A stretch of DNA of 64,000 nucleotides, from IMG/VR virus record IMGVR_UViG_3300045988_047070. One strand, given 5' to 3'. The DNA comes from a virus. Positions 8,804 to 37,440 of this stretch are shown here, in pieces. The position numbers and the translations under genes were made by a program. How positions within the stretch are numbered: the stretch's first letter is position 1; each line of letters starts with the position of its first letter. The notes beneath the pieces were generated by a model that saw nothing but the letters and a program-made list of their open reading frames with translations, made no database searches and was not told the DNA's origin.

Positions 8804-9004
8804 AGGATACTGCTGTGATTTATGTGTATGTAATTGATAAGAGAGTATTTGTAAGTTTGAGAATAGTTTACTCTTTTTTCAGTCTGCCCTTTAATCACAT
8901 TGCTTATAGCTGCCTTTACGCATACATATAATATATAGCGTATCCTACTCTTTGCATAAACAATCAAACAATTAAATAATCAAACAATTAAGGAGGACAA
9001 ACAA

Positions 9005-9622
9005 ATGAAATGTATTATTATTGGACACGAATTCGCAGAGGCAAACACAGGTAACTTGTATTGTAAACTAGAAGTAAGACCTGCAAATGATGAGTGGGCT
9101 GCATCTTTCAACTATGTAATGTTTATTACAGAGGCAATGAAAGAAGCCTTAGAAGCTAGATTTCCTAAAGAAATATATCTGCAAGAAATACGTATGCAAA
9201 CACCTGAGCCATTTAACAGAGTATGGGCTACAGATGGTAACAATCACATGCAAGGTGAAATAGTCTGCAACGCTAAAGGCGATCCTATCGTATTTAATGA
9301 CATCAAAGTCGTAATACGTACATTACCTGATGGCACACCTGCTAGAGGTGAAGATGCTGAGAAGCTACTAGAATCTAGCTGGCGTAGAGGTATTGAAAAT
9401 GGTACTATCTTACCAATTGGTGAAGGTACAGATGTACCAGATAACAATATTGGACAAACTGTAGGAGGAGCAGATGCATTTGCGGGAGCACAATCAGCTG
9501 GAGATCCAGAGAGTCTAGAGACATCTCAACCAGATCCACTACCTACAGGTAACGTTGTAGTGCCGGGTAACCGACCACAACGACCACAGCAACAAGCTGG
9601 AATCAGAGTACCTAGAGTATAA
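9005..9622 (+). CDS. hypothetical protein, paralogue of 7427-7834, with a P/Q-rich tail
   Basis: 205 aa, preceded by an unusually strong AAGGAGG site. Confidence 0.65.
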   Translation: MKCIIIGHEFAEANTGNLYCKLEVRPANDEWAASFNYVMFITEAMKEALEARFPKEIYLQEIRMQTPEPFNRVWATDGNNHMQGEIVCNAKGDPIVFNDIKVVIRTLPDGTPARGEDAEKLLESSWRRGIENGTILPIGEGTDVPDNNIGQTVGGADAFAGAQSAGDPESLETSQPDPLPTGNVVVPGNRPQRPQQQAGIRVPRV

Positions 9623-9656
9623 CAGGGATTTGCCGGGTAACCGGCAGACCTGTTTT
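9622..9656 (+). terminator. intrinsic terminator
   Basis: ACAGG..TGCCGG-GTAA-CCGGCA..CCTGT followed by TTTT. Confidence 0.7.
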
Positions 9657-9729
9657 AACAAAAACTCCCGAACATCTGCATATGATGTTTTGGGTTAATT
9701 AACATTATTAACTTTTAAAAACATTCATC

Positions 9730-9903
9730 ATGGAAGGAAAAGATGAAAACAAGCCAAAGATTGTGTATTTTATTCTAGCTGTGTTTATTCATGCTAATGT
9801 GTTTCTACCATTCCTATCTGAAAAGACAGGAGTGCATGGAGCGTTCATATTGTGTGATATAATACTTGCTATTATAGTATATAATCTAATGGCTCGGAAT
9901 TAG
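9730..9903 (+). CDS. small membrane protein (57 aa, below the track cutoff)
   Basis: Hand translation: MEGKDENKPKIVYFILAVFIHANVFLPFLSEKTGVHGAFILCDIILAIIVYNLMARN. Confidence 0.45.
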   Translation: MEGKDENKPKIVYFILAVFIHANVFLPFLSEKTGVHGAFILCDIILAIIVYNLMARN

Positions 9904-9909
9904 GGAGTT

Positions 9910-9936
9910 AGGGGTGGGTGAAAACTCACCCCTTTT
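9910..9936 (+). terminator. intrinsic terminator
   Basis: AGGGGTG-loop-CACCCCT followed by TTT. Confidence 0.6.
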
Positions 9937-9961
9937 ATATTATCAAACAAAAATCAATACA

Positions 9962-10411
9962 ATGAAGATTCTATTTAACTTTAAAAAATCTAGTTGTAAA
10001 CTTAACTGGATAGGAATATTGAAAGTAGTTTTTGGGTTCAACTTAAAGAAAGCTAAAGCTATTGTGGACTATGGAAGTTATACATATATTGTAAATGACT
10101 TAAAGAACCCTATAGATATGCAACAGTACTTTATTGATCTTCTTATTAGGATAAATTCTGCATGTATATCCAGTCTAGACGCAGATCAAAGAAAGGATGA
10201 ACTTAAGAAGGTAATATCCCTTCCTATATATGACGAAGATGTATCTAGCACTACTCCGGCAGTACAAACAATAAATGTACAAGATTTGGATATTGTAAAG
10301 GTGGGCTCAGTATATATCCTTACTCAGGAAAGATATGAGAAGCTTTTAAAAGCTGAACAAACATTGTCAAAGATAGAAACAGTACTTTACAAATGGAAGA
10401 ACAATGAATAA
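9962..10411 (+). CDS. hypothetical protein (start moved to ATG 9962)
   Basis: The tracked GTG start lies inside the terminator hairpin. Confidence 0.55.
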   Translation: MKILFNFKKSSCKLNWIGILKVVFGFNLKKAKAIVDYGSYTYIVNDLKNPIDMQQYFIDLLIRINSACISSLDADQRKDELKKVISLPIYDEDVSSTTPAVQTINVQDLDIVKVGSVYILTQERYEKLLKAEQTLSKIETVLYKWKNNE

Positions 10412-10616
10412 AAGAAGACAATATCACAAATCAAATTGTGATTCTATAGTTAGAGCAACCGTAACAGATGCACTAGGACGTAAAGTTATCCTAGTTGGAA
10501 AGCACGCTTTCGAATGGTCTATTATACTTGAAAAAGAAGGAAGATTAGTAATAACTACTTTTCCTAATAGAGAACAAGCAGTAGATACATTTAACAAAAA
10601 GTACAGGAATAAATGA
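10404..10616 (+). CDS. hypothetical protein
   Basis: 70-aa ORF. Confidence 0.5.
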   Translation: MNKRRQYHKSNCDSIVRATVTDALGRKVILVGKHAFEWSIILEKEGRLVITTFPNREQAVDTFNKKYRNK

Positions 10617-10766
10617 TATGTGTACGTATCCAGTGTATGAAGTGATACACAACTTTCTTATCTAATTTAATATTCTTTTGGCATAATTTCCTCAGCTAAT
10701 TATTGCGAGTAAAAGTAATTAGTTCGCTACTATCTCATACTAATAGTGAGGGAAAGTATGTGGTAA

Positions 10767-10844
10767 TTCTGTGTAGTTTAAGTGTCTAACACATGGTAGA
10801 ATCCCCTGCTAAGGGCGAATGCAGGTTCGAATCCTGCCACAGAA
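10767..10844 (+). ncRNA. tRNA-shaped RNA without an anticodon loop, with a hairpin inserted in the D-loop
   Basis: Acceptor TTCTGTG/CACAGAA (7 bp). TA-GTTT-AA[GTGTCTAACAC]ATGGTA-GAAT D arm. CCCT-GCTA-AGGG arm. T arm GCAGG-TTCGAAT-CCTGC. Confidence 0.55.
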
Positions 10845-11126
10845 ACATTAAAAATTCATTGATGGTTTTATAGAGAGTTTAAGATTCTCCATTTTAATTT
10901 AACACAGCTACTATATACCTATTGTGAAATACGTATATAGTTTCCCTAGAGTAAAAGCAACCTCATCGTAGCTAACAACAATACTTCATGCGCGTTTGGT
11001 TAATATACAAAGTTAGCGGGTTCTAGGGTCTAGTAGGTTTAAATTGTCAGACTGAACGAATGTCATGACTACCGAAGCTAATAGCTTTTAAAAACAGTAA
11101 ATATTAACAATAAAAATATCAAATTT

Positions 11127-11291
11127 ATGAAAAAAGAAATCAAAAAAGCACAAGAAGCAGTATGGTATAATACTGACTGCAAGTTATTAACTAAAGAAGA
11201 GTACGAAGAGCTATGCAGATACAAAGCGTTATACTTAGACTTAAAAGGTTCCTTAGAAGGAATCGTAAAAGATTTCAAGCAAAGCGCATAA
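11127..11291 (+). CDS. small hypothetical protein (54 aa, below the track cutoff)
   Basis: Hand translation: MKKEIKKAQEAVWYNTDCKLLTKEEYEELCRYKALYLDLKGSLEGIVKDFKQSA. Confidence 0.4.
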   Translation: MKKEIKKAQEAVWYNTDCKLLTKEEYEELCRYKALYLDLKGSLEGIVKDFKQSA

Positions 11292-11423
11292 TACTTGAAC
11301 TTTTAGAAGGAATTGGTTGGGCTATATGGTTATTGATATTACTCATATTATCATGTGGGGATACATTAATCTATCTCTTATATTTAGCGATATCTGTACC
11401 AATATTCATTCAAAAAATAAAGT

Positions 11424-11804
11424 ATGACTGTAGAAGCAATGATCGTAACTTGTGTAATAGTATGCATAATACTGTTACTACGGAAAAGGAGGAAAGAGAA
11501 GATAAGGGCACAGATACTAAATGATCTATACATTATTGATAGAGATTGTCGTATTATCAAAGGCAATATCATTAATAGTGATTTTATTGGTATTCTAACT
11601 AATCTAGCATTTTTAAGAGATTCACTAAAGAAGGAATCATTAAATGATGTGATACCTAAAAGTTTGTTAACGGATATACAAGTTCTATTAAATACGAACG
11701 AAGAGGAGATTAGTTTAGAAGATTTTAGGACAAATGTAGTCAGAATGATTAACGTTGTTCTAATAAGGTTACAAGGTATCTATAAACTTATAATCTACTC
11801 TTAA
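11424..11804 (+). CDS. membrane-anchored hypothetical protein
   Basis: 126 aa with an N-terminal TM segment, IVTCVIVCIILLL. Confidence 0.55.
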   Translation: MTVEAMIVTCVIVCIILLLRKRRKEKIRAQILNDLYIIDRDCRIIKGNIINSDFIGILTNLAFLRDSLKKESLNDVIPKSLLTDIQVLLNTNEEEISLEDFRTNVVRMINVVLIRLQGIYKLIIYS

Positions 11805-11805
11805 T

Positions 11806-12195
11806 ATGGATAGAAGTCTTCCTCATTTCTTACAAAGAATCGGATACCATCCTTACGAAATAAGTCCAAAGGATAGGATGTTTTTTTCATTAAAAGATCC
11901 TGAATTTGTGTCAGCGTATGGACCAGTATTTGTCGAATGGTTCCCAAAGTATCTAGGACCATCTGTTCCTATATTAGAGGTTAACAGAAGTCGTAATATT
12001 ATATGGGGATTACACGAAGCGGATCACCATCCGTGCCTAATTTACCCTAGACCAAATATCTTGATAGAAGGTGTATCAGAAGAATACAAAATTACAAATA
12101 AATATTCTGATACAATGATGGATAGAATAACTGCAAAGTATTCTCCTGAAGAGATATTTAGAGCGATTAGGAGTAATTTAATACTAATACTATAA
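11806..12195 (+). CDS. hypothetical protein
   Basis: 129-aa ORF. Confidence 0.6.
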   Translation: MDRSLPHFLQRIGYHPYEISPKDRMFFSLKDPEFVSAYGPVFVEWFPKYLGPSVPILEVNRSRNIIWGLHEADHHPCLIYPRPNILIEGVSEEYKITNKYSDTMMDRITAKYSPEEIFRAIRSNLILIL

Positions 12196-12232
12196 ATTTA
12201 AATCTGTTAAATTTATTTTATTCAGTAACAGT

Positions 12233-12445
12233 AAGAAAGTAGTTCAATTTCTATGGGTTACATAGAGAAAAGGTAGAATAGTTTACAACGAATGGTACAT
12301 ATTTTATTTAATAAGCTTGCCTATAAAATAATATGGAACTCTATTAGATAGGTCTTTTGATCTCTATCTAGGCAGCTCTTGAAACTTAAATAAAAAATGT
12401 AGAGTAGATGTAAAAAGATATTAAGTTCGAATCTTAATCTTTCTT
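12233..12445 (+). ncRNA. composite structured RNA with tRNA-like ends and a ~135-nt internal expansion
   Basis: 5' AAGAAAG-TA-GTTC pairs with the 3' CTTTCTT after T arm TTAAG-TTCGAAT-CTTAA. D-loop hairpin CTATG-GGTTA-CATAG, then GGTA-GAAT. Internal hairpins at 12298-12335 and TAGATAG/CTATCTA. Confidence 0.45.
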
Positions 12446-12471
12446 ATTTTTTAACTAAAAACAATATCACA

Positions 12472-12822
12472 ATGATTAGACTAATTATCAAAAAAGGTAA
12501 TGCATGGTTAAGTGTATTTACTTTAGCACAGATCTTTACAAAATATTTGAAACTAACTCGCTATGATGCTTTAAAGCTTGCATATGCGACACTACATCAG
12601 GATGTCGTTGTCCAGAGTAGTACAAATGCAGGTCTATATTATCTTCATGTAGATTTACATCGAAAGAAGTTTAATGCTGAAATCAATGACGTTCATGATT
12701 TAGCAGCACAATTAGACCTATTGAAATACGCTCCTTTTCAATGTGGAATGCATACAAGAGGAGGAAAAGTGTTATGGAAAAGTAACCCAAAAGATGACAT
12801 CTATAAGGAAATAAGAACATAG
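12472..12822 (+). CDS. hypothetical protein
   Basis: 116-aa ORF. Confidence 0.6.
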   Translation: MIRLIIKKGNAWLSVFTLAQIFTKYLKLTRYDALKLAYATLHQDVVVQSSTNAGLYYLHVDLHRKKFNAEINDVHDLAAQLDLLKYAPFQCGMHTRGGKVLWKSNPKDDIYKEIRT

Positions 12823-13120
12823 TTGAATGTGTACTTTTCAAAGAACAACTACCTAAATACCGCTGTGAAGCTCTATTTAGTAAAAGACCTATGAAAAGTG
12901 AGTTGTCAATCCAGCGTATACTAAGTAGTAGGTCTTTTTAAAAGACTATTCTTAATTATAAGTATATGGAAAACTACGGTTATTATTCTAAAGAAATTAA
13001 TGAAGACTGTTTTGTAGTATACTATTTTAGTAGACAAGCCAGATCTGTCATTTATCAAACAAGCTCTTTATTAGGAGCCTTGAGTTAACTAACATTATTA
13101 ACTTTTAAACATTCAATCAA

Positions 13121-13621
13121 ATGAGTGAGAAAGGAGATGGCACCGTAGGTGGTGTCTGGAAGGGAGTAGTATTAGTGCTGCTCACAATTGTTACACTATT
13201 ACTTTTATGTATTGTGTATCAAGGGCTAAAAGGAGAGAATCCTCTTACGAAAGTAAAGGAATCTGTTGGTTTTAGCACTGAAACTGAGGTAGCAATACCT
13301 ACAGTTCAAGAGAGACTAAACGAGTTCAATGCTGAAGTAGAAGATACTAAGGCATATGATACTTATCTCTCATTGCCTGTAGTAATAGTAGAAGGAATCC
13401 TAAATAAATTAGGGCCTGATGCAGATTACAGAGCAATAGTTAACGAGTATTATACTAATAGATCCTATTGGATTAGTACTCAAGTGTCGAATCAAATTAA
13501 ACCTGTATTAACTGGTCCTGATGCAAAGAATGTTGAAAGGGTTGAGGTGAAAACAGTTTTAAAAGAAGAAACACCGCCAGGGAATGAAGTCTCTCTTACT
13601 CCAGCTGATTCTATAAAGTAG
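13121..13621 (+). CDS. membrane-anchored hypothetical protein
   Basis: 166 aa with TM segment VVLVLLTIVTLLLLCIV. Shares its leader with 9730-9903. Confidence 0.6.
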   Translation: MSEKGDGTVGGVWKGVVLVLLTIVTLLLLCIVYQGLKGENPLTKVKESVGFSTETEVAIPTVQERLNEFNAEVEDTKAYDTYLSLPVVIVEGILNKLGPDADYRAIVNEYYTNRSYWISTQVSNQIKPVLTGPDAKNVERVEVKTVLKEETPPGNEVSLTPADSIK

Positions 13622-13651
13622 AATTCTTTTTGGTTCAGGAGTATACTTTTT

Positions 13652-13685
13652 ATATGCATTGCCTGTGAAGGTAGTGCATATTTTT
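13652..13685 (+). terminator. intrinsic terminator
   Basis: ATATGCA...TGCATAT stem followed by TTTTT. Confidence 0.55.
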
Positions 13686-14072
13686 ACTATTAGATCATCA
13701 GAAAATGACAAGCATGTGGGGCGTAAGTAGTATTTTTATGCAGGAGAAGAAGAATGGCAATTGTTCTAATTAGTACTGATAATTGCAAATACTATGATCG
13801 TGCGGACGTTAAAATCATGCCGTTAATAAGAATTGTACTGGCAATACAATTCTGCTACAACGTAAAATATGTTATATAGCCGATTATAAGAAGTTTTATG
13901 TAAGAGTTTTTTAATATTTATTTTGCAAGCATAAAACTTTACGATGACACTTGTTATTAGTTGCTCATAGTACAATATGAGTTGTTGTTAATCAACAATC
14001 GTTCAATCAAAACCCTCTCCGTAGTTGTACATACGGAGACGTCATCAAATTGTTTAACTAAAAATTATCAAA

Positions 14073-14501
14073 ATGAACAGTAAGATTAATGGAGTAGCAG
14101 TTGTAATATTGCCTCCAGGACTTTCTAAAGAGGAAGTTCAAGTGCTATTTTCTAGCATATTGAGTAAGTTAGAAACTATTAATCCTGAGTACAAACAAAA
14201 TGGAGGATTTCTAACTATCTTAGAGCCTAACGACCTGTTTAGAGTCGTAAATCCTGTTAATGCTGAAATAGCAACATTAGCAGACAATTTGGTAGTTGAA
14301 TTCGGTGAACCTACAGATCCTGTGCATTTTGCGACAAAGTTCGTATGTGCTTACTATGGTCCTAAAGACTTAGTAAACCATGACGTTGTTACAACAATTG
14401 CATCGATCAAAGAAGGTTCCCCAGAATGGGCTTACTTCGAAAGGAGAAAGCTAAAGTTCCTTATTTTTCAATGTCGCAACATTTTGCAGAATACTTTATG
14501 A
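14073..14501 (+). CDS. hypothetical protein
   Basis: 142-aa ORF. Confidence 0.6.
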   Translation: MNSKINGVAVVILPPGLSKEEVQVLFSSILSKLETINPEYKQNGGFLTILEPNDLFRVVNPVNAEIATLADNLVVEFGEPTDPVHFATKFVCAYYGPKDLVNHDVVTTIASIKEGSPEWAYFERRKLKFLIFQCRNILQNTL

Positions 14502-14620
14502 GCAAGACAAAGAAAGATTCTAAGGATTCAAAGGCTATGCGGAAATACACTCCGCATAAGCCTAAGATGACTCCTTATAAAAGAGAGTCTAAAGCACAGA
14601 GATTTCGCGAGGATAGCTAG
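14498..14620 (+). CDS. highly basic 40-aa peptide (ATGA start/stop overlap)
   Basis: MSKTKKDSKDSKAMRKYTPHKPKMTPYKRESKAQRFREDS. The tracked longer ORF starts inside the upstream gene. Confidence 0.4.
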   Translation: MSKTKKDSKDSKAMRKYTPHKPKMTPYKRESKAQRFREDS

Positions 14621-14876
14621 TTACCGCCAGTTACTAGTCCTCAAGTCTATAATTCTTAAATTGTTAAGATATGGTGGTCATTCCCCTAAAGCATGTTAAA
14701 CCTAACGCCCTAAGCCCATAAACGGTATGTGAAGATGCATACTACGGGATTGTGTACTTGTACAAATGATAATCTCACAGGAGGTTATTAATTATAAGAA
14801 GGAGAAGAGGTTCCCTCTGAATAAGAAATAGGAATAAGAGGGCATGCTTATTATTTGAAACTAACACAATTGGGAT

Positions 14877-15179
14877 ATGGAAAAAACAAAAGTAAAACAA
14901 GTAATTAGAGAGGCATTAGCTAGAGAACCAGCTATAGAATGGTATCTTAAAAGTAAGAAAATATACGGTCGCTATATATCTTTGCTAGCAGATGTTATAC
15001 TCACACATAAAAGAGTTTTAGTATGGAATGAAAGTATGTGTGAACGTACTATTAAGAATATAATAACAGGATCTAGTCCTTTATATATTCCAATGTCATT
15101 TCAATATAGGGAACGTATAAGAATTATCTCTAATCATGCATTGAATAGAGATACAATCCTAGAACTTTATCAAAATTAA
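14877..15179 (+). CDS. hypothetical protein
   Basis: 100-aa ORF. Confidence 0.55.
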   Translation: MEKTKVKQVIREALAREPAIEWYLKSKKIYGRYISLLADVILTHKRVLVWNESMCERTIKNIITGSSPLYIPMSFQYRERIRIISNHALNRDTILELYQN

Positions 15180-15212
15180 TTATTAATATCAAAAAAAAAA
15201 AAACAAAAGAAA

Positions 15213-15635
15213 ATGGAAACTAAAGACATTATCACAGAAATCACCGAAGGTAGAAAAGTAAGCGAAGACATTATCAAAGCTGCAAATGAGGACATCTTAA
15301 AAGGGCGAGAGGAGAATCTCAAACAAGAGATGATCAATACTCTACAGAATTCTGAGTACAAGATCGGTTACTCAAAATTGAGACTGAAAAGAGCTCGAGC
15401 ATTTGAAGAGATAGAGAAAGAACGTCTGACAAAAGTAGGCGAGAATATGAATCGTTTAAAAGCCGGTGGTATCACTCCAGAGGATTGGGAAAAAGAGGAT
15501 GAGAAGATTGAGAAAGAAGCATCTGATAAACTGCTTGAAAAGAAAGCAGAGTTCAGCGGCTACTTGAAGCAATTGAATCGTATCTATAACGATTGTAGCT
15601 GGAGTGTTTTGAGAGATAGCTTCGACCGCTATTAA
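15213..15635 (+). CDS. hypothetical coiled-coil-like protein
   Basis: 140 aa, rich in E and K, preceded by an A12 run. Confidence 0.55.
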   Translation: METKDIITEITEGRKVSEDIIKAANEDILKGREENLKQEMINTLQNSEYKIGYSKLRLKRARAFEEIEKERLTKVGENMNRLKAGGITPEDWEKEDEKIEKEASDKLLEKKAEFSGYLKQLNRIYNDCSWSVLRDSFDRY

Positions 15636-15975
15636 TCAGCAATTCCGCTCTGAAGAGCTATAAGCCGAAAAGAGTAGTGGGATATGAATATAGTAGTATT
15701 TCACAACGCAAGAGATATACTTGCATTGCTTAAGATCCTTTGAGACAAAAGCAGGAAGGCGAAATTAGCATCAAGACTAAAGAGTACGAGATCCATTGAG
15801 ACAGCTAGTCCTACGTACTCATATTCATTATTTTTCAGGTTTAATTAGTAGAGAGCTATAAGCCAATAATAGTTTAGTACAGTAGTAATGCCGATCATAT
15901 AAGTCTCATCGTAGCGTTGGAGTCCATTTCAGTATTAAATGATTTATTACTACTAAAGGAACCAAAAATTAGGGT

Positions 15976-16008
15976 GTAAGGAGAGAGATCTCCTTACATT
16001 CACTAAAT
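15976..16008 (+). repeat. hairpin plus an ATTCACTAAA tail (sibling of 18843-18876)
   Basis: GTAAGGAG-loop-CTCCTTAC followed by ATTCACTAAAT. Confidence 0.45.
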
Positions 16009-16219
16009 ATTCACGATATAAGAACTGTGTCGTGTCTTATTAGGTTTATTGGAAACTATTAGGACGAGGGTTCGATTAAGATGGTCGAGTTTAAATTGGG
16101 TGAATTCAGGGAACGCTAAACAAAAATGCTCAGAAATGACATTTTTGCATGCCAATCCTGAGCTAAGCATGTAGTACACTACATGAAAGTGCAGAGACTA
16201 CTGGAGAACTAAAGTGTTC

Positions 16220-16744
16220 TTAATTACCAGCTAGAGCGCCCAACCCTTCATTAGAAGGTGAAGAGATAGTCCAAGATTCACGAAACTTTTTAAGTTTCTC
16301 CTCAGAAATGAGGTTCCTATGAACCATTCTGTGGCAATTAGGACATAAAGTTATTAAGTTTGTAATTTCATTTTTACCACCGTTAGATACAGGTATAATA
16401 TGATGAACATCACAAGAAGCTTTATTCCAACCGCATATTGCACAAGGTTGTAATAATAGAAAATTGTAAAATGATCTAGTAATAGCATTATTAGATTTCA
16501 TTCTTTTACGATAATCTTTTAATTTACAAGCATTCGTACAATACTTTGCTTTGGAAGATTGCGCTTCAAATTCCTGTTCACATACAATACATTTACATTT
16601 GTATTTCTTTCTATGTAAATTTCTGTATTTAGCAGCACATGAAAGTGAACAAAATTTTGCATTTCCTCTGTTTACCTCTCGTAAATCAGCTTGGAATTCA
16701 TTATTACAACATAAACATTCTTTTTTCATACAACCATAACGCAT
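16220..16744 (-). CDS. HNH endonuclease with two N-terminal Cys4 zinc-ribbon-like repeats
   Basis: CDVHHIIPVSNGGKNEITNLITLCPNCHRMVH. The only minus-strand gene inside the plus-strand block. Confidence 0.85.
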   Translation of the reverse strand: MRYGCMKKECLCCNNEFQADLREVNRGNAKFCSLSCAAKYRNLHRKKYKCKCIVCEQEFEAQSSKAKYCTNACKLKDYRKRMKSNNAITRSFYNFLLLQPCAICGWNKASCDVHHIIPVSNGGKNEITNLITLCPNCHRMVHRNLISEEKLKKFRESWTISSPSNEGLGALAGN

Positions 16745-17017
16745 ATGGAGATAGAATGTTCTAATAACTTAAAAGAATCTGTCCCTCCAGCTCCACGCTC
16801 ATAAGAGCTACAAGGGCAAAACAAAACTAGGGTTTTTGATCGTGTTAACCGTGCGCCAAGTTTTTAAATTTTAGAACGGTTAAAAGGGGCTGCATGGTTT
16901 TGACTAGTAGTGAAAGGTAAAATAGGTTCATTGTGTGTTTAAATGGCAATAATTTTGTCACAGACTATACTCAACTAGCAGTTGCGTAAAGTCACGTGCT
17001 AACTACGAAAGTGAGGG

Positions 17018-17082
17018 ATATCTATAGTTTAACGGTAGAACACTGATTATTCAGTAGTGTAGGTTCGAATCCTACTAGATAA
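17018..17082 (+). ncRNA. tRNA-shaped RNA without an anticodon loop
   Basis: ATATCTA-TA-GTTT-AACGGTA-GAAC-ACTGA-TTAT-TCAGT-AGT-GTAGG-TTCGAAT-CCTAC-TAGATAA. A1/A72 are mismatched and C73 follows. Confidence 0.6.
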
Positions 17083-17103
17083 CATAAACTAAAAACAGTA
17101 TGG

Positions 17104-17418
17104 ATGGCAAGAGTTAGTTTTTCAGGCTATGTAGCCTATGTTAGTGAGAATCTTCCTGAATCTTGGAAAAGAGTTGGGGAGAATCATGGAGTACTTAATC
17201 AGCTGATAAGTGCAGTTGCTAAGTATTGTTACGAACACCTTTTGACAGGTCGAGAGTTAGTTATGCATTTGAAAGAGAATACACTAATTGACGCTGCAGA
17301 CTTCGAAGAAGAGCCTCAAGGGATAGATTGGTGGGTAGATTTAAGTCTAGAAGCCAATATGCTAGAATCACATGGTTGTATTCCTACATTTGCAGAAGAT
17401 GATAAGAGTACCAAGTAA
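17104..17418 (+). CDS. hypothetical protein
   Basis: 104-aa ORF. Confidence 0.55.
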   Translation: MARVSFSGYVAYVSENLPESWKRVGENHGVLNQLISAVAKYCYEHLLTGRELVMHLKENTLIDAADFEEEPQGIDWWVDLSLEANMLESHGCIPTFAEDDKSTK

Positions 17419-17818
17419 AGTAAAGTATGATCTATTTAACGTATCTTCATTTACTCAGGAATTTATATGTGCCGGAGTAAGAGATAATGTTGTTGGAATG
17501 TATAACTTTCTCAAAGAGAAAGGAGTACAGGTAAAAGACAAACAAGCTGATGATCTTAGAATTAGCAGTAGAAAAAGTATTGTGTTACTTTGCACTAACT
17601 CTAACTCTAGTAACCCATTTGGAATAATCCAATTGAAGGACTGGGGTTGGTGGAACTTCTATCATAATAAGCATAATCGTAGTAGTAAACCATTGTACTA
17701 TACGTATAACTTACCATCACAATGGCATGAAATGCTTAGGGATGGCTGTATATGGAAGGAAATGGAAGTATTTGATAAACCAGAAACGTATGAGGGTAGG
17801 AAAACGTATTTATTTTGA
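17399..17818 (+). CDS. hypothetical protein (internal Met start)
   Basis: MIRVPSKVKYD... overlaps the upstream gene by 20 nt. Confidence 0.5.
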   Translation: MIRVPSKVKYDLFNVSSFTQEFICAGVRDNVVGMYNFLKEKGVQVKDKQADDLRISSRKSIVLLCTNSNSSNPFGIIQLKDWGWWNFYHNKHNRSSKPLYYTYNLPSQWHEMLRDGCIWKEMEVFDKPETYEGRKTYLF

Positions 17819-17990
17819 AAGTCCCCAAGAGAGGAAAGAGTTCTTAGCATTGCTAAGAGATGCACAAGATGTTACAGAGATAGCAACAATCATTGCTAAA
17901 ACTTACAAAAAAGATCTAATAGAGGCAATGGATATTGCTCGAGTGTATAACGAATTTATTAGGAAGGAAAATGAAAACGTTGACAACTAG
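17790..17990 (+). CDS. hypothetical protein (internal Met start)
   Basis: MRVGKRIYFESPQERKEF... Confidence 0.4.
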   Translation: MRVGKRIYFESPQERKEFLALLRDAQDVTEIATIIAKTYKKDLIEAMDIARVYNEFIRKENENVDN

Positions 17991-18396
17991 TGGAACTTAT
18001 TTAGTAACAATCAGTGGACAAGAGTACATAGCAGTAGTAATAGGAAGCGCACCTATGCTACAGGTTGCAAGAGTGTTAAACTTAACAAAGTTCATTGATA
18101 CTGGAGAGTTAGAAATCAGTACAGAAGCAAGAACTGTATTAACTGAGAAACCGTGCGAATTTAACTTCAGACAGATCGACTTGAACATCATCAGTCCGAT
18201 GCAGGAAGTAGTACAGATACCGAAGTTACCCTACACACCTAAACAGTACAAAAAATGGTTATCATTATGTGGTGATTTAGATCGTGAAAAGTTACTTACA
18301 GATATCATGCTAACAAACCCTAGCATCAGTTACGGTGAAGCTCAAACAATCATTGATCAGTTATGGAGAGACAAAAGGAACATAGTCTCACAGTAA
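17971..18396 (+). CDS. hypothetical protein (internal Met start)
   Basis: MKTLTTSG... preceded by AGGAAGGAAA. Confidence 0.5.
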   Translation: MKTLTTSGTYLVTISGQEYIAVVIGSAPMLQVARVLNLTKFIDTGELEISTEARTVLTEKPCEFNFRQIDLNIISPMQEVVQIPKLPYTPKQYKKWLSLCGDLDREKLLTDIMLTNPSISYGEAQTIIDQLWRDKRNIVSQ

Positions 18397-18839
18397 ATTA
18401 TACAGATCTGTGTGATTATCTAAACGACCGTCTAGTCTTACCCTATCTACCTAAAGTAGGAGAAGACTGGAATTTATTTGGTCCAGTCATATCACAGACA
18501 TATGGACCAGACGGAGTATTCCCTAAGCAATATAATGATAAAGAATTACTAAAATGGATACAACACAGAATCCAAGTAAGGACATTATTATTATTTGTAC
18601 AAAGGAAACTCTTTACACACCTTGCCATGTTACACAATACAAGGGCAACGGATGCAGTTCAGATGCGTATTTTCGTATCTATGCTGAACAAGTTAGGACT
18701 ACCTAGAATTTATGCTGATGAAATATTTGATAATGTACATCTGCAGTATGACATTAGGAAACCTGTTTTCGAAGATTATTATCTTATGAAAATATTAGGT
18801 TTACCTTTTTGTTTTGAATCTAGGCCTTGTCCTTTTTAA
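18363..18839 (+). CDS. hypothetical protein
   Basis: 158-aa ORF. Confidence 0.5.
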   Translation: MERQKEHSLTVNYTDLCDYLNDRLVLPYLPKVGEDWNLFGPVISQTYGPDGVFPKQYNDKELLKWIQHRIQVRTLLLFVQRKLFTHLAMLHNTRATDAVQMRIFVSMLNKLGLPRIYADEIFDNVHLQYDIRKPVFEDYYLMKILGLPFCFESRPCPF

Positions 18840-18842
18840 GGT

Positions 18843-18876
18843 GTTAGGGGTTCGACTCCCCTAACATTCACTAAAC
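18843..18876 (+). repeat. T-arm-like hairpin plus an ATTCACTAAA tail
   Basis: GTTAGGGG-TTCGACT-CCCCTAAC followed by ATTCACTAAAC, 15 nt upstream of the sigma gene. Confidence 0.5.
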
Positions 18877-18890
18877 AAGTTAGTTTGATT

Positions 18891-19454
18891 ATGAAGAGAG
18901 AAGATGAAGACCTTCTTATTCAGCAAGCTAAGCTTGGTAAGCAAGATGCTTTTACAGAGCTTTATGATCGGCATCATAAGCTTATTCGATACATTATCTA
19001 TGATATTGTAAAGAATGAAGATGTAGCAGATGACTTATTATCTGTTACCTTCACAAAAGCATTTAGTAGATTAGAATCTTATGTAAACCCTATTTCATTT
19101 GAAATGTGGTTAAAAACTATAGCAATTAACACTGCAATAGATTATATAAGATCTTCTAAGAATGAGAAACAGAATCATTATATAGATTCTGAGGACAATT
19201 ACATTCAGTTAGATAGTAACGATCTCAGTCCTGAGGAAGTTATTATGAAACAGGAAACTGTTGAACAACTGAAAGTAGCTCTACATAAATTAAGATCTAA
19301 ATATCGTAACATATTAGAATTACGATATTTCAAAGGCTTAAGTTATGAAGAACTTGCAACTGAGCTTGGCGTGCCAATAGGAACTGTAAAAAGTGACTTA
19401 AACAAAGCTAAGAAGAGATTGCGAGAATTCTTTGACAACATTAACAATAACTAA
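18891..19454 (+). CDS. ECF-type sigma-70 family RNA polymerase sigma factor
   Basis: Region 2 (FTELYDRHHKLIRYIIYDIV...ADDLLSVTFTKAF) and region 4 HTH (LELRYFKGLSYEELATELGVPIGTVKSDLNKAKKRL). Confidence 0.85.
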   Translation: MKREDEDLLIQQAKLGKQDAFTELYDRHHKLIRYIIYDIVKNEDVADDLLSVTFTKAFSRLESYVNPISFEMWLKTIAINTAIDYIRSSKNEKQNHYIDSEDNYIQLDSNDLSPEEVIMKQETVEQLKVALHKLRSKYRNILELRYFKGLSYEELATELGVPIGTVKSDLNKAKKRLREFFDNINNN

Positions 19455-27532: not shown

Positions 27533-27599
27533 AGTGTAATAGTTTAATGGTAGAACGTAACATTTTTGTTAAAGTGAGAGTTCGAATCTCTCTTACACA
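27533..27599 (+). ncRNA. tRNA-shaped RNA without an anticodon loop
   Basis: AGTGTAA-TA-GTTT-AATGGTA-GAAC-G-TAACA-TTTT-TGTTA-AAGT-GAGAG-TTCGAAT-CTCTC-TTACACA. A1/A72 are mismatched and C73 follows. Confidence 0.6.
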
Positions 27600-27644
27600 C
27601 TCCGTTACAAATTAACATTGTAAATTTATCAAAAATTTAAAGAA

Positions 27645-28496: not shown

Positions 28497-28514
28497 GTGC
28501 GTCGAAAGACGCAC
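28497..28514 (+). other. GAAA-tetraloop hairpin without a U-run
   Basis: GTGCGTC-GAAA-GACGCAC. Confidence 0.5.
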
Positions 28515-28518
28515 ATAA

Positions 28519-28596
28519 GGAAGAGTAATAGCCTGATAAACTATACTAGGTACTATATCGATGCAATATAGGGCAGTTCGATTCTGCACTCTTCCA
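28519..28596 (+). ncRNA. tRNA-like element with an irregular core
   Basis: Perfect 7-bp acceptor GGAAGAG/CTCTTCC. TA-ATAG-CCTGATAAA-CTAT D arm. T arm GCAG-TTCGATT-CTGC. The central hairpin CTATAT-CGATGCA-ATATAG lacks U33 and R37. Confidence 0.4.
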
Positions 28597-28615
28597 CGAG
28601 ATTAAAACCACAACC

Positions 28616-37199: not shown

Positions 37200-37279
37200 G
37201 TATTATCGCACGTAAGTGGATGTACTGTCTGGTAAAGAAATACAAAGTCTGAAAAGGACGACAGAATACCTAGATTGGA

Positions 37280-37325
37280 GCTAGTTAATATATACTAGCA
37301 TGGGGGTTCGAATCCCCCTCTCACA
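37280..37325 (+). ncRNA. tRNA 3'-half-like element (arm plus T arm; no 5' acceptor strand found)
   Basis: GCTAGT-TAATATAT-ACTAGC, then GGGGG-TTCGAAT-CCCCC-TCTCACA. Confidence 0.3.
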
Positions 37326-37330
37326 CAAAA

Positions 37331-37424
37331 AGAGAGTAAGCACATAATCCTAGTAGAGGATAAGCAGATGTGTGAATAGCCCGGTATTTTTTACCTAAGG
37401 AGAGGTGCAAGTCCTCTACTCTCA
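37331..37424 (+). ncRNA. tRNA-like element with an expanded D region and a U5-loop arm
   Basis: AGAGAGT/ACTCTCA acceptor (A1/A72 mismatch, C73). Inserted hairpin ATCCT-AGTAG-AGGAT. GGTA-TTTTT-TACC arm. T arm AGAGG-TGCAAGT-CCTCT. Confidence 0.4.
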
Positions 37425-37440
37425 CTAAAATTGCTATATT

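What the first reader, a model, noticed from the sequence alone, without database searches (positions are those of the whole stretch)
10767..10844. Third family member, with an 11-nt hairpin inserted in the D-loop
The acceptor TTCTGTG/CACAGAA is perfect (7 bp) and the T arm is GCAGG-TTCGAAT-CCTGC. The short arm is CCCT-GCTA-AGGG, a tetraloop. The D arm reads GTTT-AA[GTGT-CTA-ACAC]ATGGTA-GAAT. That is the AATGGTA D-loop of the 27533 copy interrupted by a self-complementary insert. D-loop hairpin insertions also appear at 12233-12445 and 37331-37424. This suggests a modular expansion site at the tRNA elbow.
Basis: seen in the sequence. Interest (0 to 1): 0.68.

Follow-up and report, generated by a model that had tools for sequence, protein, structure and literature searches.

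The report
Anticodon-less phage tRNA-like with D-loop hairpin
A crAss-like gut phage carries a conserved tRNA-shaped RNA that has no usable anticodon arm and an extra hairpin in its D-loop; it is one of several such elements at fixed spots between genes, and they most likely act as cutting signals for the host's tRNA-processing enzymes rather than as decoders.

Summary
Window 10767-10845 (+) is a tRNA-like element: a perfect 7-bp acceptor, a canonical T arm, and a D arm with A14, G18G19 and A21. A 12-nt insert (an 11-nt hairpin plus A) interrupts the D-loop, and the "anticodon" arm is only 12 nt long. Rfam's tRNA model scores it 37.3 bits (cut-off 29). ARAGORN does not call it.

The window is a crAss-like phage, 94% identical to cr10_1 (Suoliviridae). 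Across 13 distinct variants from about 50 contigs, every stem substitution keeps pairing. This includes one compensatory G-C to A-U change inside the inserted hairpin.

D-loop hairpins at the same site recur in 12233-12446 and in the 37331 family, where inserts range from 0 to 62 nt. One also occurs in an unrelated phage contig.

The slots upstream of the DNA polymerase and primase genes hold a tRNA or tRNA-like element ending 14-28 nt before the ATG in nearly all related phages examined, with interchangeable occupants. The sibling at 17018 directly follows a phage tmRNA gene.

Best reading: a non-decoding, tRNA-derived module used in cis as an RNase P/RNase Z processing handle. The fold is shown; the function is inferred. 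I found no published description.

The parts
10767..10845 (+). The whole tRNA-like element, 79 nt including the discriminator A10845
   Evidence: Rfam RF00005 scores 37.3 bits against a cut-off of 29. The minimum-energy fold has z = -2.71. The element is conserved in about 50 contigs as 13 variants, with 100% of stem cells paired.
10767..10773 (+). Acceptor stem 5' strand TTCTGTG, which pairs with 10838-10844
   Evidence: Seven Watson-Crick pairs. One variant has U-A changed to U.G, at A10839G.
10776..10802 (+). D arm: stem GTTT/GAAT and a 19-nt loop, with A14 A15 (10780-81) and G18 G19 (10795-96)
   Evidence: Apart from the insert and the last D-stem base (T, where the siblings have C), it matches the D arms of 27533 and 17018. 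The stem never varies.
10782..10792 (+). Inserted hairpin GTGT-CTA-ACAC in the 5' part of the D-loop (A10793 completes the 12-nt insert)
   Evidence: Present in the minimum-energy fold. G10784-C10790 changes to A-U in two distinct variants, and G10782-C10792 changes to G.U in three. Removing the insert lets ARAGORN call the element.
10804..10815 (+). Truncated 'anticodon' arm CCCT-GCTA-AGGG. It could also be read as CCC/GGG with loop CUGCUAA.
   Evidence: The loop varies (GCTA or GTTA) in one genome.
10821..10837 (+). T arm GCAGG-TTCGAAT-CCTGC
   Evidence: C10822T gives a U.G pair. G10829A keeps a purine at position 57.
10838..10844 (+). Acceptor stem 3' strand CACAGAA. The discriminator at 10845 is A or T among relatives, and no CCA is encoded.
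17018..17083 (+). Sibling tRNA-like element: 5-bp arm with a 4-nt loop and an A1.A72 mismatch. It begins 28 nt after the stop codon of the tmRNA tag frame.
   Evidence: Rfam tRNA 46.9 bits. Arm variants include A-U changing to G-C through G.U. tmRNA context.
27533..27600 (+). Sibling tRNA-like element: TAACA-TTTT-TGTTA arm. It starts 7 nt after the upstream stop codon and ends 44 nt before the next ATG.
   Evidence: Rfam tRNA 54.1 bits. ARAGORN reports 'tRNA-??? (tt)'.
12233..12446 (+). tRNA-like element with a 20-nt D-loop hairpin (12249-12268) and a rod of about 130 nt in place of the anticodon arm
   Evidence: T-stem compensatory changes among relatives, ATTAAG/CTTAAT to ACTAAG/CTTAGT. ARAGORN calls it once both inserts are removed in silico.
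28519..28598 (+). tRNA-like element 17 nt upstream of the DNA polymerase ATG, preceded by a GAAA-capped hairpin at 28497-28514
   Evidence: z = -2.83. The slot is filled in 81 of 81 related loci.
37331..37424 (+). tRNA-like element 16 nt upstream of the primase ATG, with a 15-nt D-loop hairpin (ATCCTAGTAGAGGAT)
   Evidence: The insert is hypervariable among relatives.

Best explanation
The element is a tRNA-derived RNA that no longer decodes. It lies in an early/middle, plus-strand transcription block of a crAss-like phage (Suoliviridae, close to Canhaevirus cr10_1).

It keeps the half of a tRNA that processing enzymes read. That half is the acceptor stem stacked on the T arm, plus the D-loop/T-loop elbow (U8, A14, G18G19, U54-U55-C56, A15 and U48). 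The anticodon arm is cut down to 12 nt, and a 4-bp hairpin protrudes from the exposed 5' part of the D-loop (positions 16/17).

Proposed mechanism, which is inferred. The element acts in cis as a handle for host RNase P (cutting at 10766/10767) and RNase Z or 3' exonucleases (cutting after 10845). These cuts divide the long phage transcript and free the structured RNAs and mRNAs on either side. This is the same logic as tRNA punctuation in mitochondria, plant mitochondrial t-elements, MALAT1-mascRNA and the MHV68 tRNA-miRNA units.

On this reading the D-loop hairpin is a tolerated expansion at a surface position. It is either neutral or an accessory binding site.
For: Shown:
- The fold and its conservation.
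- No canonical anticodon arm is possible.
- The discriminator base (A or T) and the pseudo-anticodon (GCTA or GTTA) vary among near-identical copies. This argues against aminoacylation or decoding constraints.
- The complete cr10_1 genome yields only two Rfam tRNA-model hits, both truncated-arm elements. Neither Rfam nor ARAGORN finds a tRNA with a normal anticodon loop.
- The tRNA-like elements at 10767, 12233, 17018, 27533, 28519 and 37331 are all on the coding strand, in intergenic gaps of the plus-strand block. Five of these six end 16-45 nt before the next ATG.

Position is conserved while sequence is not:
- Upstream of the DNA polymerase gene, 81 of 81 loci (polymerase identity 74-100%) have a T arm plus a 7-bp acceptor ending 14-28 nt before the ATG.
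- The occupants there range from a real tRNA-Arg or tRNA-Glu to elements with 3-nt or GAAA-capped arms. ARAGORN fails to of them.
- Upstream of primase, 46 of 49 loci with a canonical T-loop have a spacing of 14-24 nt, across primase identities of 55-99% and at least 8 different occupants.
- At the 10767 slot, cr50_1 carries a different tRNA-like element that ends 19 nt before the next gene.

Context:
- The sibling at 17018 starts 28 nt after the tag stop codon of a genuine two-piece tmRNA. That RNA needs a defined 3' end.
- Neighbouring gaps hold a Hatchet self-cleaving ribozyme and RAGATH-9.
- A stable hairpin directly precedes both the Hatchet ribozyme (13652-13681) and the 28519 element (28497-14).
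- An unrelated phage contig (L290) has the same design, stop codon, 7 nt, element, 16 nt, ATG. It also has a Hatchet-like hit in the same operon.
Against: - No cleavage or transcript-end data exist.
- Short spacing to the next ATG could simply reflect genome compaction.
- The 10767 element itself lies 281 nt from the next ORF. It sits among other covarying hairpins, so it may be one domain of a larger RNA.
- A possible 10-bp helix (10756-10765 with 10909-10918) would end 1 nt before the acceptor stem. That would leave almost no single-stranded leader for RNase P.
- Two siblings have an A1.A72 mismatch, which is unusual for RNase P substrates.
- Whether a 19-nt D-loop is compatible with elbow recognition has not been tested.
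- Covariation for this element rests on very few events within one genus.
Confidence: 0.45

Rival explanations
1. The excised element is a stable, trans-acting tRNA mimic. It would carry CCA added by the host enzyme and would bind or titrate a host tRNA-binding factor. Candidates are a tRNA-targeting defence nuclease or toxin, a modification enzyme, EF-Tu, or the partner of Rsr/Y-RNA. Alternatively it could be a natural 'tRNA scaffold' that stabilises and displays the inserted hairpins.
For: - The L-shape core nucleotides are conserved.
- The siblings look like derivatives of tRNA-Lys(UUU), with T-rich shrunken loops and the cr55_1 homologue annotated as tRNA-Lys. From memory, tRNA-Lys is the target of known anticodon nucleases.
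- D-loop inserts in the 37331 family are hypervariable between near-identical phages, as expected under an arms race.
- Bacteroidota chromosomes carry tRNA-like modules without an anticodon arm that share the same D-arm (GGTAGAAY) and T-loop (GGTTCGAATCC) motifs. One lies near a TROVE/Ro60 gene.
- Truncated-arm tRNA-likes sit inside the large tRNA arrays of other phages.
Against: - The occupant sequence at a given slot is replaceable while the position is fixed. That fits a cis signal better than a sequence-specific trans factor.
- The anticodon loop, the usual target of anticodon nucleases, is missing, so binding to such enzymes is doubtful.
- No partner protein is encoded nearby; the flanking ORFs have no family hits.
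- This reading is compatible with processing and does not exclude it.
Confidence: 0.22
2. The element is one domain of a larger structured non-coding RNA spanning roughly 10619-10939 or more. It does not function on its own. The acceptor stem may alternate with a long-range pairing, acting as a conformational switch.
For: - RNAalifold on 14 relatives of 10617-11130 finds covarying structures on both sides of the element. These are a three-way junction at 10687-10754, a long hairpin at 10943-11028 and a hairpin at 11046-11070 with 3-5 compensatory pairs.
- It also finds long-range helices: 10619-29 with 10929-39, and 10756-65 with 10909-18.
- It further finds an alternative pairing of CTGTGT (10769-74) with ACACAG (10902-07).
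- These long-range helices are 100% paired, with 5 one-sided changes.
Against: - The long-range helices show no double compensatory change, and the shuffle control is uninformative.
- One helix rests on the palindrome TACGTA.
- The ACACAG segment is deleted in some genomes that keep the tRNA-like element intact (L008).
- cr50_1 has a tRNA-like element at this slot without the surrounding structures.
- No Rfam family matches the region.
Confidence: 0.12
3. The element is a decaying tRNA pseudogene with no present function. Its conservation only reflects the short divergence time within one phage genus.
For: - All roughly 50 copies come from genomes that are 94-99% identical.
- Some flanking non-coding stretches are as conserved as the element itself.
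- crAss-phage annotators routinely dismiss such hits as tRNA pseudogenes.
Against: - Every stem substitution preserves pairing, and the only disruptive type (G to A) is compensated.
- The truncated arm is neatly capped rather than randomly degraded.
- The same architecture recurs in an unrelated phage.
- tRNA-shaped occupants are maintained at fixed slots across primase identities down to 55%.
Confidence: 0.12
4. The element is a working but aberrant tRNA-Ser(GCU), or another decoder, with a 3-bp anticodon stem and an expanded D-loop.
For: - A CU-GCU-AA heptaloop with U33 and A37 can be drawn.
- ARAGORN calls tRNA-Ser(gct) once the D-loop insert is removed in silico.
Against: - That fold has only 3 Watson-Crick pairs plus 2 mismatches in the anticodon stem, and it sacrifices the D stem.
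- Only 18 nt lie between the D and T stems, and there is no long variable arm. From established tRNA identity rules, bacterial SerRS needs that arm.
- The native sequence is not called by ARAGORN. At 80% of the threshold it becomes 'tRNA-Phe(gaa)' with A33 and U37, among 34 mostly spurious calls.
- The middle base of the pseudo-anticodon and the discriminator base both vary.
- The siblings have 4-6-nt loops.
Confidence: 0.04

Closest known systems
Canonical bacterial/phage tRNA (Rfam RF00005)
   Same: 7-bp acceptor stem. 5-bp T stem with a UUCGAAU loop. D stem with A14, G18G19 and A21. U8. A compatible A15/U48 pair. It scores above the Rfam gathering threshold.
   Different: There is no 5-bp/7-nt anticodon arm and no position 26. 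The D-loop is 19 nt and contains an internal hairpin. No CCA is encoded. ARAGORN does not call it.
tRNA-like processing signals: mitochondrial tRNA punctuation, plant mitochondrial t-elements, MALAT1 mascRNA, and MHV68 viral tRNA-like/pre-miRNA units (TMERs). These are cited from established knowledge and were not re-read here.
   Same: They are non-decoding tRNA-shaped modules embedded in longer transcripts. They retain the acceptor/T-arm/elbow and have reduced anticodon arms. They are used by RNase P and RNase Z to release neighbouring RNAs. The phage elements sit between cistrons or next to other structured RNAs, including a tmRNA.
   Different: Those systems are eukaryotic, organellar or herpesviral. 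No equivalent has been described for a tailed phage as far as my searches reached. Cleavage has not been demonstrated here. None of those systems, to my knowledge, has a D-loop hairpin expansion.
tmRNA tRNA-like domain
   Same: It is a tRNA mimic without an anticodon. A genuine two-piece tmRNA is encoded 28 nt upstream of the sibling element at 17018.
   Different: The tmRNA domain has G3:U70 and no D stem, and its anticodon arm is replaced by helix P2. The 10767 element has C3-G70, a full D stem and a capped short arm.
Bacterial Y RNA YrlA tRNA-like module
   Same: It has D-arm and T-arm mimicry and lacks an anticodon arm. Bacteroidota chromosomes contain modules with the same GGTAGAAY D-arm and GGTTCGAATCC T-loop motifs. 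One lies 2.4 kb from a TROVE/Ro60 gene.
   Different: The topology is reversed: in those modules the acceptor-like stems are closed hairpins and the ends lie elsewhere. No Ro60/TROVE hit was found among the window proteins I scanned.
Archaeal tRNAs with non-canonical D-loop introns
   Same: Extra sequence is inserted in the D-loop of a tRNA-shaped gene.
   Different: Archaeal introns are flanked by a bulge-helix-bulge motif and removed by the splicing endonuclease. Here the insert is a plain 4-bp hairpin with no such motif, in a phage whose relatives come from human faeces, so presumably of gut bacteria, and it covaries as a retained RNA helix.

Membership tests
Decoding tRNA | 7-bp acceptor stem with an unpaired discriminator base | tested here: met
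   TTCTGTG/CACAGAA followed by A10845. All 13 variants are paired.
Decoding tRNA | T arm: 5-bp stem and a 7-nt loop of the form U54-U55-C56-R57-A58 | tested here: met
   GCAGG-TTCGAAT-CCTGC. The G57A variant keeps a purine.
Decoding tRNA | D arm with a 7-11-nt loop carrying A14, G18G19 and A21 | tested here: inconclusive
   The stem and the conserved bases are present, but the loop is 19 nt and contains an internal 4-bp hairpin.
Decoding tRNA | Anticodon arm: 5-bp stem and a 7-nt loop with U33 and a purine at 37 | tested here: not met
   Only 18 nt lie between the D and T stems. The best alternatives have a 3-bp stem, or have A33 and U37.
Decoding tRNA | Called by standard tRNA detectors | tested here: inconclusive
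   Rfam scores 37.3 bits against 29 (met). ARAGORN at its default threshold does not call it.
Decoding tRNA | Aminoacylation and ribosomal decoding | not testable with these tools
   Indirect evidence only: the discriminator and the pseudo-anticodon vary among near-identical copies.
tRNA-like RNase P/RNase Z processing signal (mascRNA, t-element, TMER type) | Acceptor/T-arm coaxial helix plus a D/T-loop elbow, embedded in a longer transcript on the sense strand | tested here: met
   The element is intergenic, on the coding strand, and flanked by ORFs and structured RNAs.
tRNA-like RNase P/RNase Z processing signal (mascRNA, t-element, TMER type) | Endonucleolytic cleavage at position +1 and after the discriminator | not testable with these tools
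   This needs end-mapping or in vitro cleavage.
tmRNA tRNA-like domain | G3:U70 alanine identity pair, no D stem, and helix P2 in place of the anticodon arm | tested here: not met
   C3-G70, a 4-bp D stem and a capped short arm.
YrlA / Y RNA | RNA termini form the Ro-binding stem, and an rsr (TROVE) gene lies nearby | tested here: not met
   The termini form the acceptor stem. No TROVE hit was found among the window proteins scanned.
Archaeal-type tRNA intron | Bulge-helix-bulge motif at the insert boundaries | tested here: not met
   AA[GTGT-CTA-ACAC]AT has no 3-nt bulges flanking a 4-bp helix.

The most novel reading that the evidence does not exclude
In crAss-like phages the tRNA fold has been repurposed as a processing-competent scaffold. 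Its two surface positions, the D-loop 16/17 pocket and the anticodon-arm stump, would act as insertion sites for interchangeable RNA hairpins. These range from 0 to 62 nt, some are GC-rich, and they differ between near-identical phages. The hairpins would be functional payloads, such as decoys or aptamers against host factors, evolving under an arms race. This would be a natural counterpart of the engineered 'tRNA scaffold'.
Probability: 0.12. Interest if true: 0.85.

Novelty: new variant of a known kind. Interest (0 to 1): 0.62.

Why it matters
tRNA-like hits in phage genomes are usually discarded as pseudogenes or mis-annotated. The homologues here are either unannotated or labelled 'tRNA-Cys', 'tRNA-Lys' or part of a 'tmRNA'.

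The data show a maintained class of anticodon-less tRNA shapes in one of the most abundant groups of human-gut phages. They sit at fixed positions in front of replication genes and next to a phage tmRNA and self-cleaving ribozymes.

If they are RNase P/Z punctuation marks, crAss-like phages organise their early and middle transcripts much as mitochondria do. That would also give an experimentally tractable explanation for why ribozymes and tRNA-like elements cluster in phage intergenic regions.

The D-loop expansion shows that the tRNA elbow tolerates, or exploits, large insertions at positions 16/17. This matters for RNase P recognition rules and for RNA engineering.

Tried and rejected
- Canonical tRNA-Ser(GCU) or tRNA-Phe(GAA) folds were rejected. 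They need mismatched stems and loss of the D stem, and appear only at relaxed ARAGORN thresholds or after in-silico deletion.
- Rfam's own alignment uses GTTT/TAAC as the D stem and treats 22 nt as an anticodon-arm insert. It is less parsimonious than homology with the TGGTAGAAY of the siblings.
- The motif AGTGAGGG upstream of both 10767 and 17018 is not enriched: 2 copies against 0.98 expected.
- ATACGTAT as a repeated operator or long-range pairing motif is not enriched.
- Searching for insert-less orthologues of 10767 in IMG/VR and JGI metagenomes by its T-arm/acceptor sequence found only copies with the same-length insert.
- The signature combining the D-loop insert and the short arm is absent from 185,579 bacterial and archaeal species genomes.
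- Six literature searches found no description of these elements. One crAss preprint mentions 'ambiguous tRNA-like' pseudogenes in passing.
- Pfam and PHROG searches of flanking and other plus-strand ORFs found no tRNA-processing, tRNA-binding, RNA-ligase or TROVE proteins.
- Rfam with lax filters finds nothing else in 10600-12480.
- The protein-structure tools and the large protein searches were not used, because no protein bears directly on the element.
Full report
WHAT THE WINDOW IS

Window 9000-19000 is 94% identical, over 92% of its length, to uncultured crAss-like phage cr10_1. That phage is NC_055875: Crassvirales, Suoliviridae, Boorivirinae, Canhaevirus, from human faeces.

Genes run on the minus strand at 1-7 kb and 41-64 kb; the latter block includes ORFs of 1,763 and 4,266 aa. 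Between about 8.5 and 40.7 kb they run on the plus strand. The plus-strand block holds small ORFs with no family matches. It also holds an ECF-type sigma factor, a DnaB-like helicase, AAA ATPases, the DNA polymerase and the primase.

CHECKING THE OBSERVATION

In order: TTCTGTG (10767-73), TA, GTTT, AA, the hairpin [GTGT-CTA-ACAC] (10782-92), ATGGTA, GAAT, C, CCCT-GCTA-AGGG (10804-15), CGAAT, GCAGG-TTCGAAT-CCTGC (10821-37), CACAGAA (10838-44), A.

Compared with the D-loop AATGGTA of the 27533 copy, the insert is 12 nt: the 11-nt hairpin plus one A.

- Rfam's tRNA covariance model scores the element 37.3 bits against a gathering score of 29. It scores the two siblings at 17018-17083 and 27533-27600 at 46.9 and 54.1 bits. 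All three are aligned with a shortened anticodon arm.
- ARAGORN calls only 27533, as 'tRNA-??? (tt)'.
- RNAfold's minimum-energy structure for 10767-10845 contains the acceptor, the inserted hairpin, the short arm and the T arm (-23.6 kcal/mol, z = -2.71).
- No ORF longer than 28 aa overlaps the element.
- The octamer GTTCGAAT occurs 7 times in the window against 1.25 expected.

CONSERVATION AND COVARIATION

I collected the element from IMG/VR contigs, JGI/ENA metagenome contigs and cr10_1. All copies carry an insert of the same length. There are 13 distinct variants.

With the cloverleaf-plus-hairpin structure imposed, all 24 pairs are paired in all variants.
- In the inserted hairpin, G10784-C10790 becomes A-U in two distinct variants (six contigs). 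These occur on two different T-stem backgrounds.
- G10782-C10792 becomes G.U in three variants.
- One acceptor pair changes from U-A to U.G, and one T-stem pair from C-G to U.G.
- The only substitution type that would break a pair (G to A) is the one that is compensated.

Loop positions vary freely. The pseudo-anticodon is GCTA or GTTA. Position 57 is G or A, a purine in both cases. The discriminator is A or T.

The support is real but thin, because it rests on few events within one genus. Parts of the flanking non-coding DNA are equally conserved.

One linked double change, U10794C with A10819G, appears in two genomes. It would keep a Watson-Crick pair between the D-loop and the variable loop. 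I regard this as only suggestive, because the 17018 family varies at the equivalent D-loop base with no partner change.

ALTERNATIVE FOLDS

Only 18 nt separate the D stem from the T stem. A canonical tRNA needs at least 22.

- A CU-GCU-AA heptaloop can be drawn on a CCC/GGG stem. When I delete the 12-nt insert in silico, ARAGORN calls 'tRNA-Ser(gct)'. That call has two mismatches in the anticodon stem, a degraded D stem and no long variable arm.
- At 80% of its threshold, ARAGORN calls the native sequence 'tRNA-Phe(gaa)'. That fold has A33 and U37, a mismatched stem and a 3-bp D stem. It is one of 34 mostly spurious calls in the window.

Neither alternative scores better or has covariation of its own. 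Whether the short arm is 4 bp plus a tetraloop or 3 bp plus a 6-7-nt loop cannot be decided from sequence.

THE D-LOOP AS AN EXPANSION SITE

- The element at 12233-12446 has an acceptor of AAGAAAG/CTTTCTT and a T arm of ATTAAG-TTCGAAT-CTTAAT, which covaries among relatives (ACTAAG/CTTAGT). Its D arm is GTTC-AAT[TTCTATG-GGTTA-CATAGAG-A]AAAGGTA-GAAT, and a rod of about 130 nt replaces the anticodon arm. ARAGORN recognises it only after both inserts are removed.
- The element at 37331-37424 belongs to a family found upstream of primase. In that family the D-loop insert is absent (L163) or 13, 18, 20, 54 or 62 nt longer. Every insert folds as a hairpin. Several forms differ between phages whose primases are 98-99% identical (window, L100, L102, L104).
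- A scan of IMG/VR for the D-arm signature with a long D-loop found one further, unrelated case, L290, on a 99-kb contig. It reads GGGCCCT TA GTTT AA[AGTCT-CAATGA-AGAC]AAGGTA GAAC CTCAAA-CTTA-TTTGAG AAAT GGGAG-TTCGAAT-CTCCC AGGGCCC T. Rfam scores it 42.5 bits and ARAGORN finds nothing. Its 14.5-kb locus has no nucleotide or protein similarity to the window.

In every case the insert follows A14-A15(-N). In a tRNA this is the exposed 16/17 part of the D-loop at the outer corner of the L. That placement comes from established tRNA structure and was not tested here.

WHAT THESE ELEMENTS ARE: CONTEXT

Almost every intergenic gap of the plus-strand block holds a structured RNA:
- tRNA-like elements at 10767, 12233, 17018, 27533, 28519 and 37331;
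- a possible further one at about 37190-37330;
- a T-arm-like hairpin at 18843-18866, just before the sigma-factor gene;
- a Hatchet ribozyme at 13694-13820;
- RAGATH-9 at 14674-14852;
- a group I intron.

Of the six tRNA-like elements at 10767, 12233, 17018, 27533, 28519 and 37331, five end 16-45 nt before the next ATG: 12446 to 12472, 17083 to 17104, 27600 to 27645, 28598 to 28616, and 37424 to 37441.

The complete cr10_1 genome yields only two Rfam tRNA hits, both of the truncated kind. ARAGORN finds no tRNA with a normal anticodon loop.

SLOT CONSERVATION

Upstream of the DNA polymerase gene:
- In all 81 sequences examined (polymerase identity 74-100%), a T arm with a 7-bp acceptor partner ends 14-28 nt before the ATG.
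- The occupants differ. They include a canonical tRNA-Arg(UCU) and tRNA-Glu(UUC), elements with a 3-nt loop or a GAAA-capped stump, and the window type with variable internal hairpins.
- ARAGORN calls none in 39 of the 81.

Upstream of primase:
- Among 80 loci (primase identity 54-99%), 46 of the 49 with a canonical T-loop have a spacing of 14-24 nt.
- The remainder mostly carry a mini element (GCAATGT-CTAATGGTTAG-ATTC-GTGGGG-ATCGTTA-CCCCAC-ATTGC) at the same distance.
- ARAGORN recognises only 2 of the 79 loci tested.

At the 10767 slot, cr50_1 (genus Cohcovirus) has a different tRNA-like element. It is annotated 'tRNA-Cys(aca)', has a 9-nt loop and no D-loop insert, and ends 19 nt before the next gene.

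So position and shape are kept, while sequence and anticodon are not. That pattern points to a cis-acting structural signal.

THE 17018 SIBLING AND THE tmRNA

In cr10_1, the 264 nt before the 17018-type element match Rfam's permuted tmRNA model (49.6 bits against 47). The match includes several typical tmRNA features:
- GGACGAGGGUUCGACUCCCUCCAGCUCCAC, the T arm plus the 3' acceptor strand;
- GGGGCUG...UUGGAUUUGAC, the 5' acceptor strand plus the D-loop analogue;
- a G3:U70 pair;
- the tag reading frame GNNFVTDYTQLAVA*.

The window has the same gene, but its T-loop is split by the group I intron. The 5' exon ends ...GGGTTCGAT at 16076. The intron spans 16077-16781 and ends in G. It carries an HNH ORF on the minus strand (Pfam HNH, E = 2.8e-13). 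The 3' exon begins at 16782 with TCCCTCCAGCTCCAC.

The tag stop codon is at 16987-16989, and the tRNA-like element begins at 17018. A tRNA-shaped RNase P substrate placed there would define the 3' end of the tmRNA coding piece.

The homologous element in cr55_1 (annotated tRNA-Lys) has a 5-nt TTTTA loop. cr50_1 has ATTTTA, and the window has TTAT and TTTT. This suggests descent from tRNA-Lys(UUU) with progressive loss of the anticodon loop.

MECHANISM PROPOSED

Shown: the fold, its maintenance, the loss of a decoding-competent arm, and the positional pattern.

Inferred: host RNase P and RNase Z (or 3' exonucleases) recognise the acceptor/T-arm helix and the elbow. From established enzymology, neither enzyme needs the anticodon arm. 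They would cut the phage transcript at both borders of the element.

This fits four further observations.
- The elements co-reside with a self-cleaving Hatchet ribozyme.
- Stable hairpins lie immediately upstream of both the Hatchet ribozyme (13652-13681) and the 28519 element (GTGCGTC-GAAA-GACGCAC, 28497-28514). Such hairpins would protect the 3' end of the upstream fragment.
- The discriminator base is free to vary.
- L290 repeats the design in an unrelated phage that also has a Hatchet-like hit (49.8 bits).

On this reading the D-loop hairpin is a tolerated surface expansion.

WEAK POINTS

There are no end-mapping data. Short spacers could reflect compaction alone.

The 10767 element differs from its siblings. 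It lies in a 510-nt ORF-free stretch (10617-11126), 281 nt from the next ORF, among other covarying structures:
- a three-way junction at 10687-10754;
- a hairpin at 10943-11028;
- a hairpin at 11046-11070, with 3-5 compensatory pairs;
- a terminator-like hairpin at 11075-11095.

RNAalifold even prefers long-range helices that enclose the element or compete with its acceptor stem. Those helices are fully paired but show only one-sided changes. One partner segment is deleted in genomes that keep the element (L008). I therefore keep 'domain of a larger RNA' as a rival.

COMPARISON WITH KNOWN SYSTEMS

The element works most like tRNA-shaped processing signals: mitochondrial punctuation, plant t-elements, mascRNA and the MHV68 TMERs. 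Those comparisons come from established knowledge, not from papers re-read here.

It is not a member of several other families.
- Decoding tRNA: the anticodon arm was tested and the requirement is not met.
- tmRNA tRNA-like domain: there is no G3:U70, and a D stem is present.
- YrlA: the topology is wrong and no TROVE gene was found.
- Archaeal intron-containing tRNA: there is no bulge-helix-bulge motif.

The short-arm signature alone hits at least 120 bacterial contigs, mostly Bacteroidota (Pedobacter, Sphingobacterium, Chryseobacterium). There, tRNA-like modules without an anticodon arm lie directly next to a second T-arm hairpin (Rfam tRNA 30-44 bits). In one Chryseobacterium locus a TROVE/Ro60 gene lies 2.4 kb away. 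These look like Y-RNA-type tRNA mimics. They show that anticodon-less tRNA shapes also exist in Bacteroidota, the phylum generally taken to host crAss-like phages (from general knowledge; the host was not determined here).

The combined signature of D-loop insert plus short arm is absent from 185,579 species genomes.

In other phages, truncated-arm tRNA-likes sit inside large tRNA arrays.

NOVELTY AND VERDICT

I found no description of these elements in the searchable literature. RefSeq leaves the 10767 homologue unannotated.

I classify this as a new variant of a known kind: a tRNA-like structural RNA. Two features are unusual. One is a recurrent D-loop expansion site. The other is the maintenance of interchangeable occupants at fixed slots in crAss-like phages.

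- Confidence that the element is a maintained, non-decoding tRNA-like RNA: about 0.85.
- Confidence in the processing-signal mechanism: about 0.45.
- Interest: 0.62.

Noticed in passing
window 16030-16990: A phage-encoded two-piece (permuted) tmRNA gene with tag GNNFVTDYTQLAVA* (GGC at 16945, TAA at 16987-89) and 5' acceptor strand GGGGCTG at 16886-92. Its T-loop is interrupted by a 705-nt group I intron (16077-16781) that carries an HNH endonuclease ORF on the opposite strand (16220-16744). cr10_1 has the intron-less gene (Rfam RF04321, 49.6 bits). The intron, HNH ORF and downstream tRNA-like element are 91-92% identical to cr55_1 and cr1_1, while the flanks do not match, which suggests a mobile cassette.
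   Followed up: yes
window 12233-12446: A tRNA-like element with a 20-nt D-loop hairpin (12249-12268) and an AT-rich rod of about 130 nt where the anticodon arm should be. Rfam does not recognise it. The T stem covaries among relatives.
   Followed up: partly
window 37190-37424 and loci L100-L165: Two tandem tRNA-like elements lie upstream of primase. In relatives, the D-loop insert of the second ranges from none to 62 nt beyond the shortest form. It includes a GC-rich module of about 55 nt (for example L102: ...GGCGGGCTGCTTTGCAGTCGGCGTACGGTGGGTGGAGG...) in a genome of about 33% GC. Forms differ between phages with 98-99% identical primase.
   Followed up: partly
window 28497-28598; loci L210-L289: A GAAA-capped 7-bp GC hairpin lies 4 nt before the tRNA-like element upstream of the DNA polymerase gene. 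Other lineages have an analogous GC hairpin in front of their own occupant. The slot is filled in 81 of 81 loci.
   Followed up: yes
window 10617-11126: A 510-nt ORF-free region around the finding contains further covarying RNA structures: a three-way junction at 10687-10754, a long hairpin at 10943-11028, a hairpin at 11046-11070 (3-5 compensatory pairs) and a terminator-like hairpin at 11075-11095. Possible long-range helices are 10619-29 with 10929-39 and 10756-65 with 10909-18. None matches an Rfam family.
   Followed up: partly
window 10794 and 10819: A linked double change, U to C and A to G, in two genomes (L011/L094 and L202). It would preserve a Watson-Crick pair between the D-loop base before G18 and the variable loop. 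It may be a tertiary pair or a coincidence.
   Followed up: no
window 13652-13820 and 14674-14852: A Hatchet ribozyme (102.7 bits) is preceded by a 13-bp hairpin with a T run. A RAGATH-9 RNA (94.8 bits) lies in the next intergenic gap. Both are conserved in cr10_1.
   Followed up: no
window 18843-18866: A T-arm-like hairpin, TTAGGGG-TTCGACT-CCCCTAA, with a 7-bp stem. It lies 18 nt upstream of the start codon of the ECF-type sigma-factor gene (18885-19454) and is conserved in relatives. No acceptor partner was identified.
   Followed up: no
window 29854-30700: The DNA polymerase gene is a single 650-aa ORF in cr10_1. In the window it is interrupted after about 29853 by an insert that contains ORF 29972-30592. 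The insert matches cr53_1, where an HNH endonuclease is annotated. It is probably a second intron or homing element.
   Followed up: partly
window 22533-23828: A 1.3-kb stretch without ORFs of 60 aa or more, in the middle of the plus-strand block. It has no Rfam hit and was not examined.
   Followed up: no
L290 1563-1647 (-) and 6310-6421 (-): An unrelated 99-kb phage contig (IMGVR_UViG_3300013132_000033) has a tRNA-like element with the same D-loop hairpin position and a tetraloop-capped 6-bp arm. It is packed as stop codon, 7 nt, element, 16 nt, ATG. A Hatchet-like hit (49.8 bits, just under the cut-off of 51) lies 4.7 kb away on the same strand.
   Followed up: partly
L292-L411 (bacterial genomes), e.g. 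L297 4858-4920, L310 2475-2617: Bacteroidota chromosomes (Pedobacter, Sphingobacterium, Chryseobacterium, Flavobacterium) carry tRNA-like modules without an anticodon arm, each next to a second T-arm hairpin and with hairpin-closed acceptor-like stems. In L310 a TROVE/Ro60 gene lies 2.4 kb downstream. These are probably YrlA-type Y RNAs that the Rfam YrlA model does not capture.
   Followed up: partly
cr10_1 record 64930-65970 (outside the window): The reference phage encodes a reverse transcriptase annotated as retron-type, possibly part of a diversity-generating retroelement. Any relation to the tRNA-like elements is unknown.
   Followed up: no
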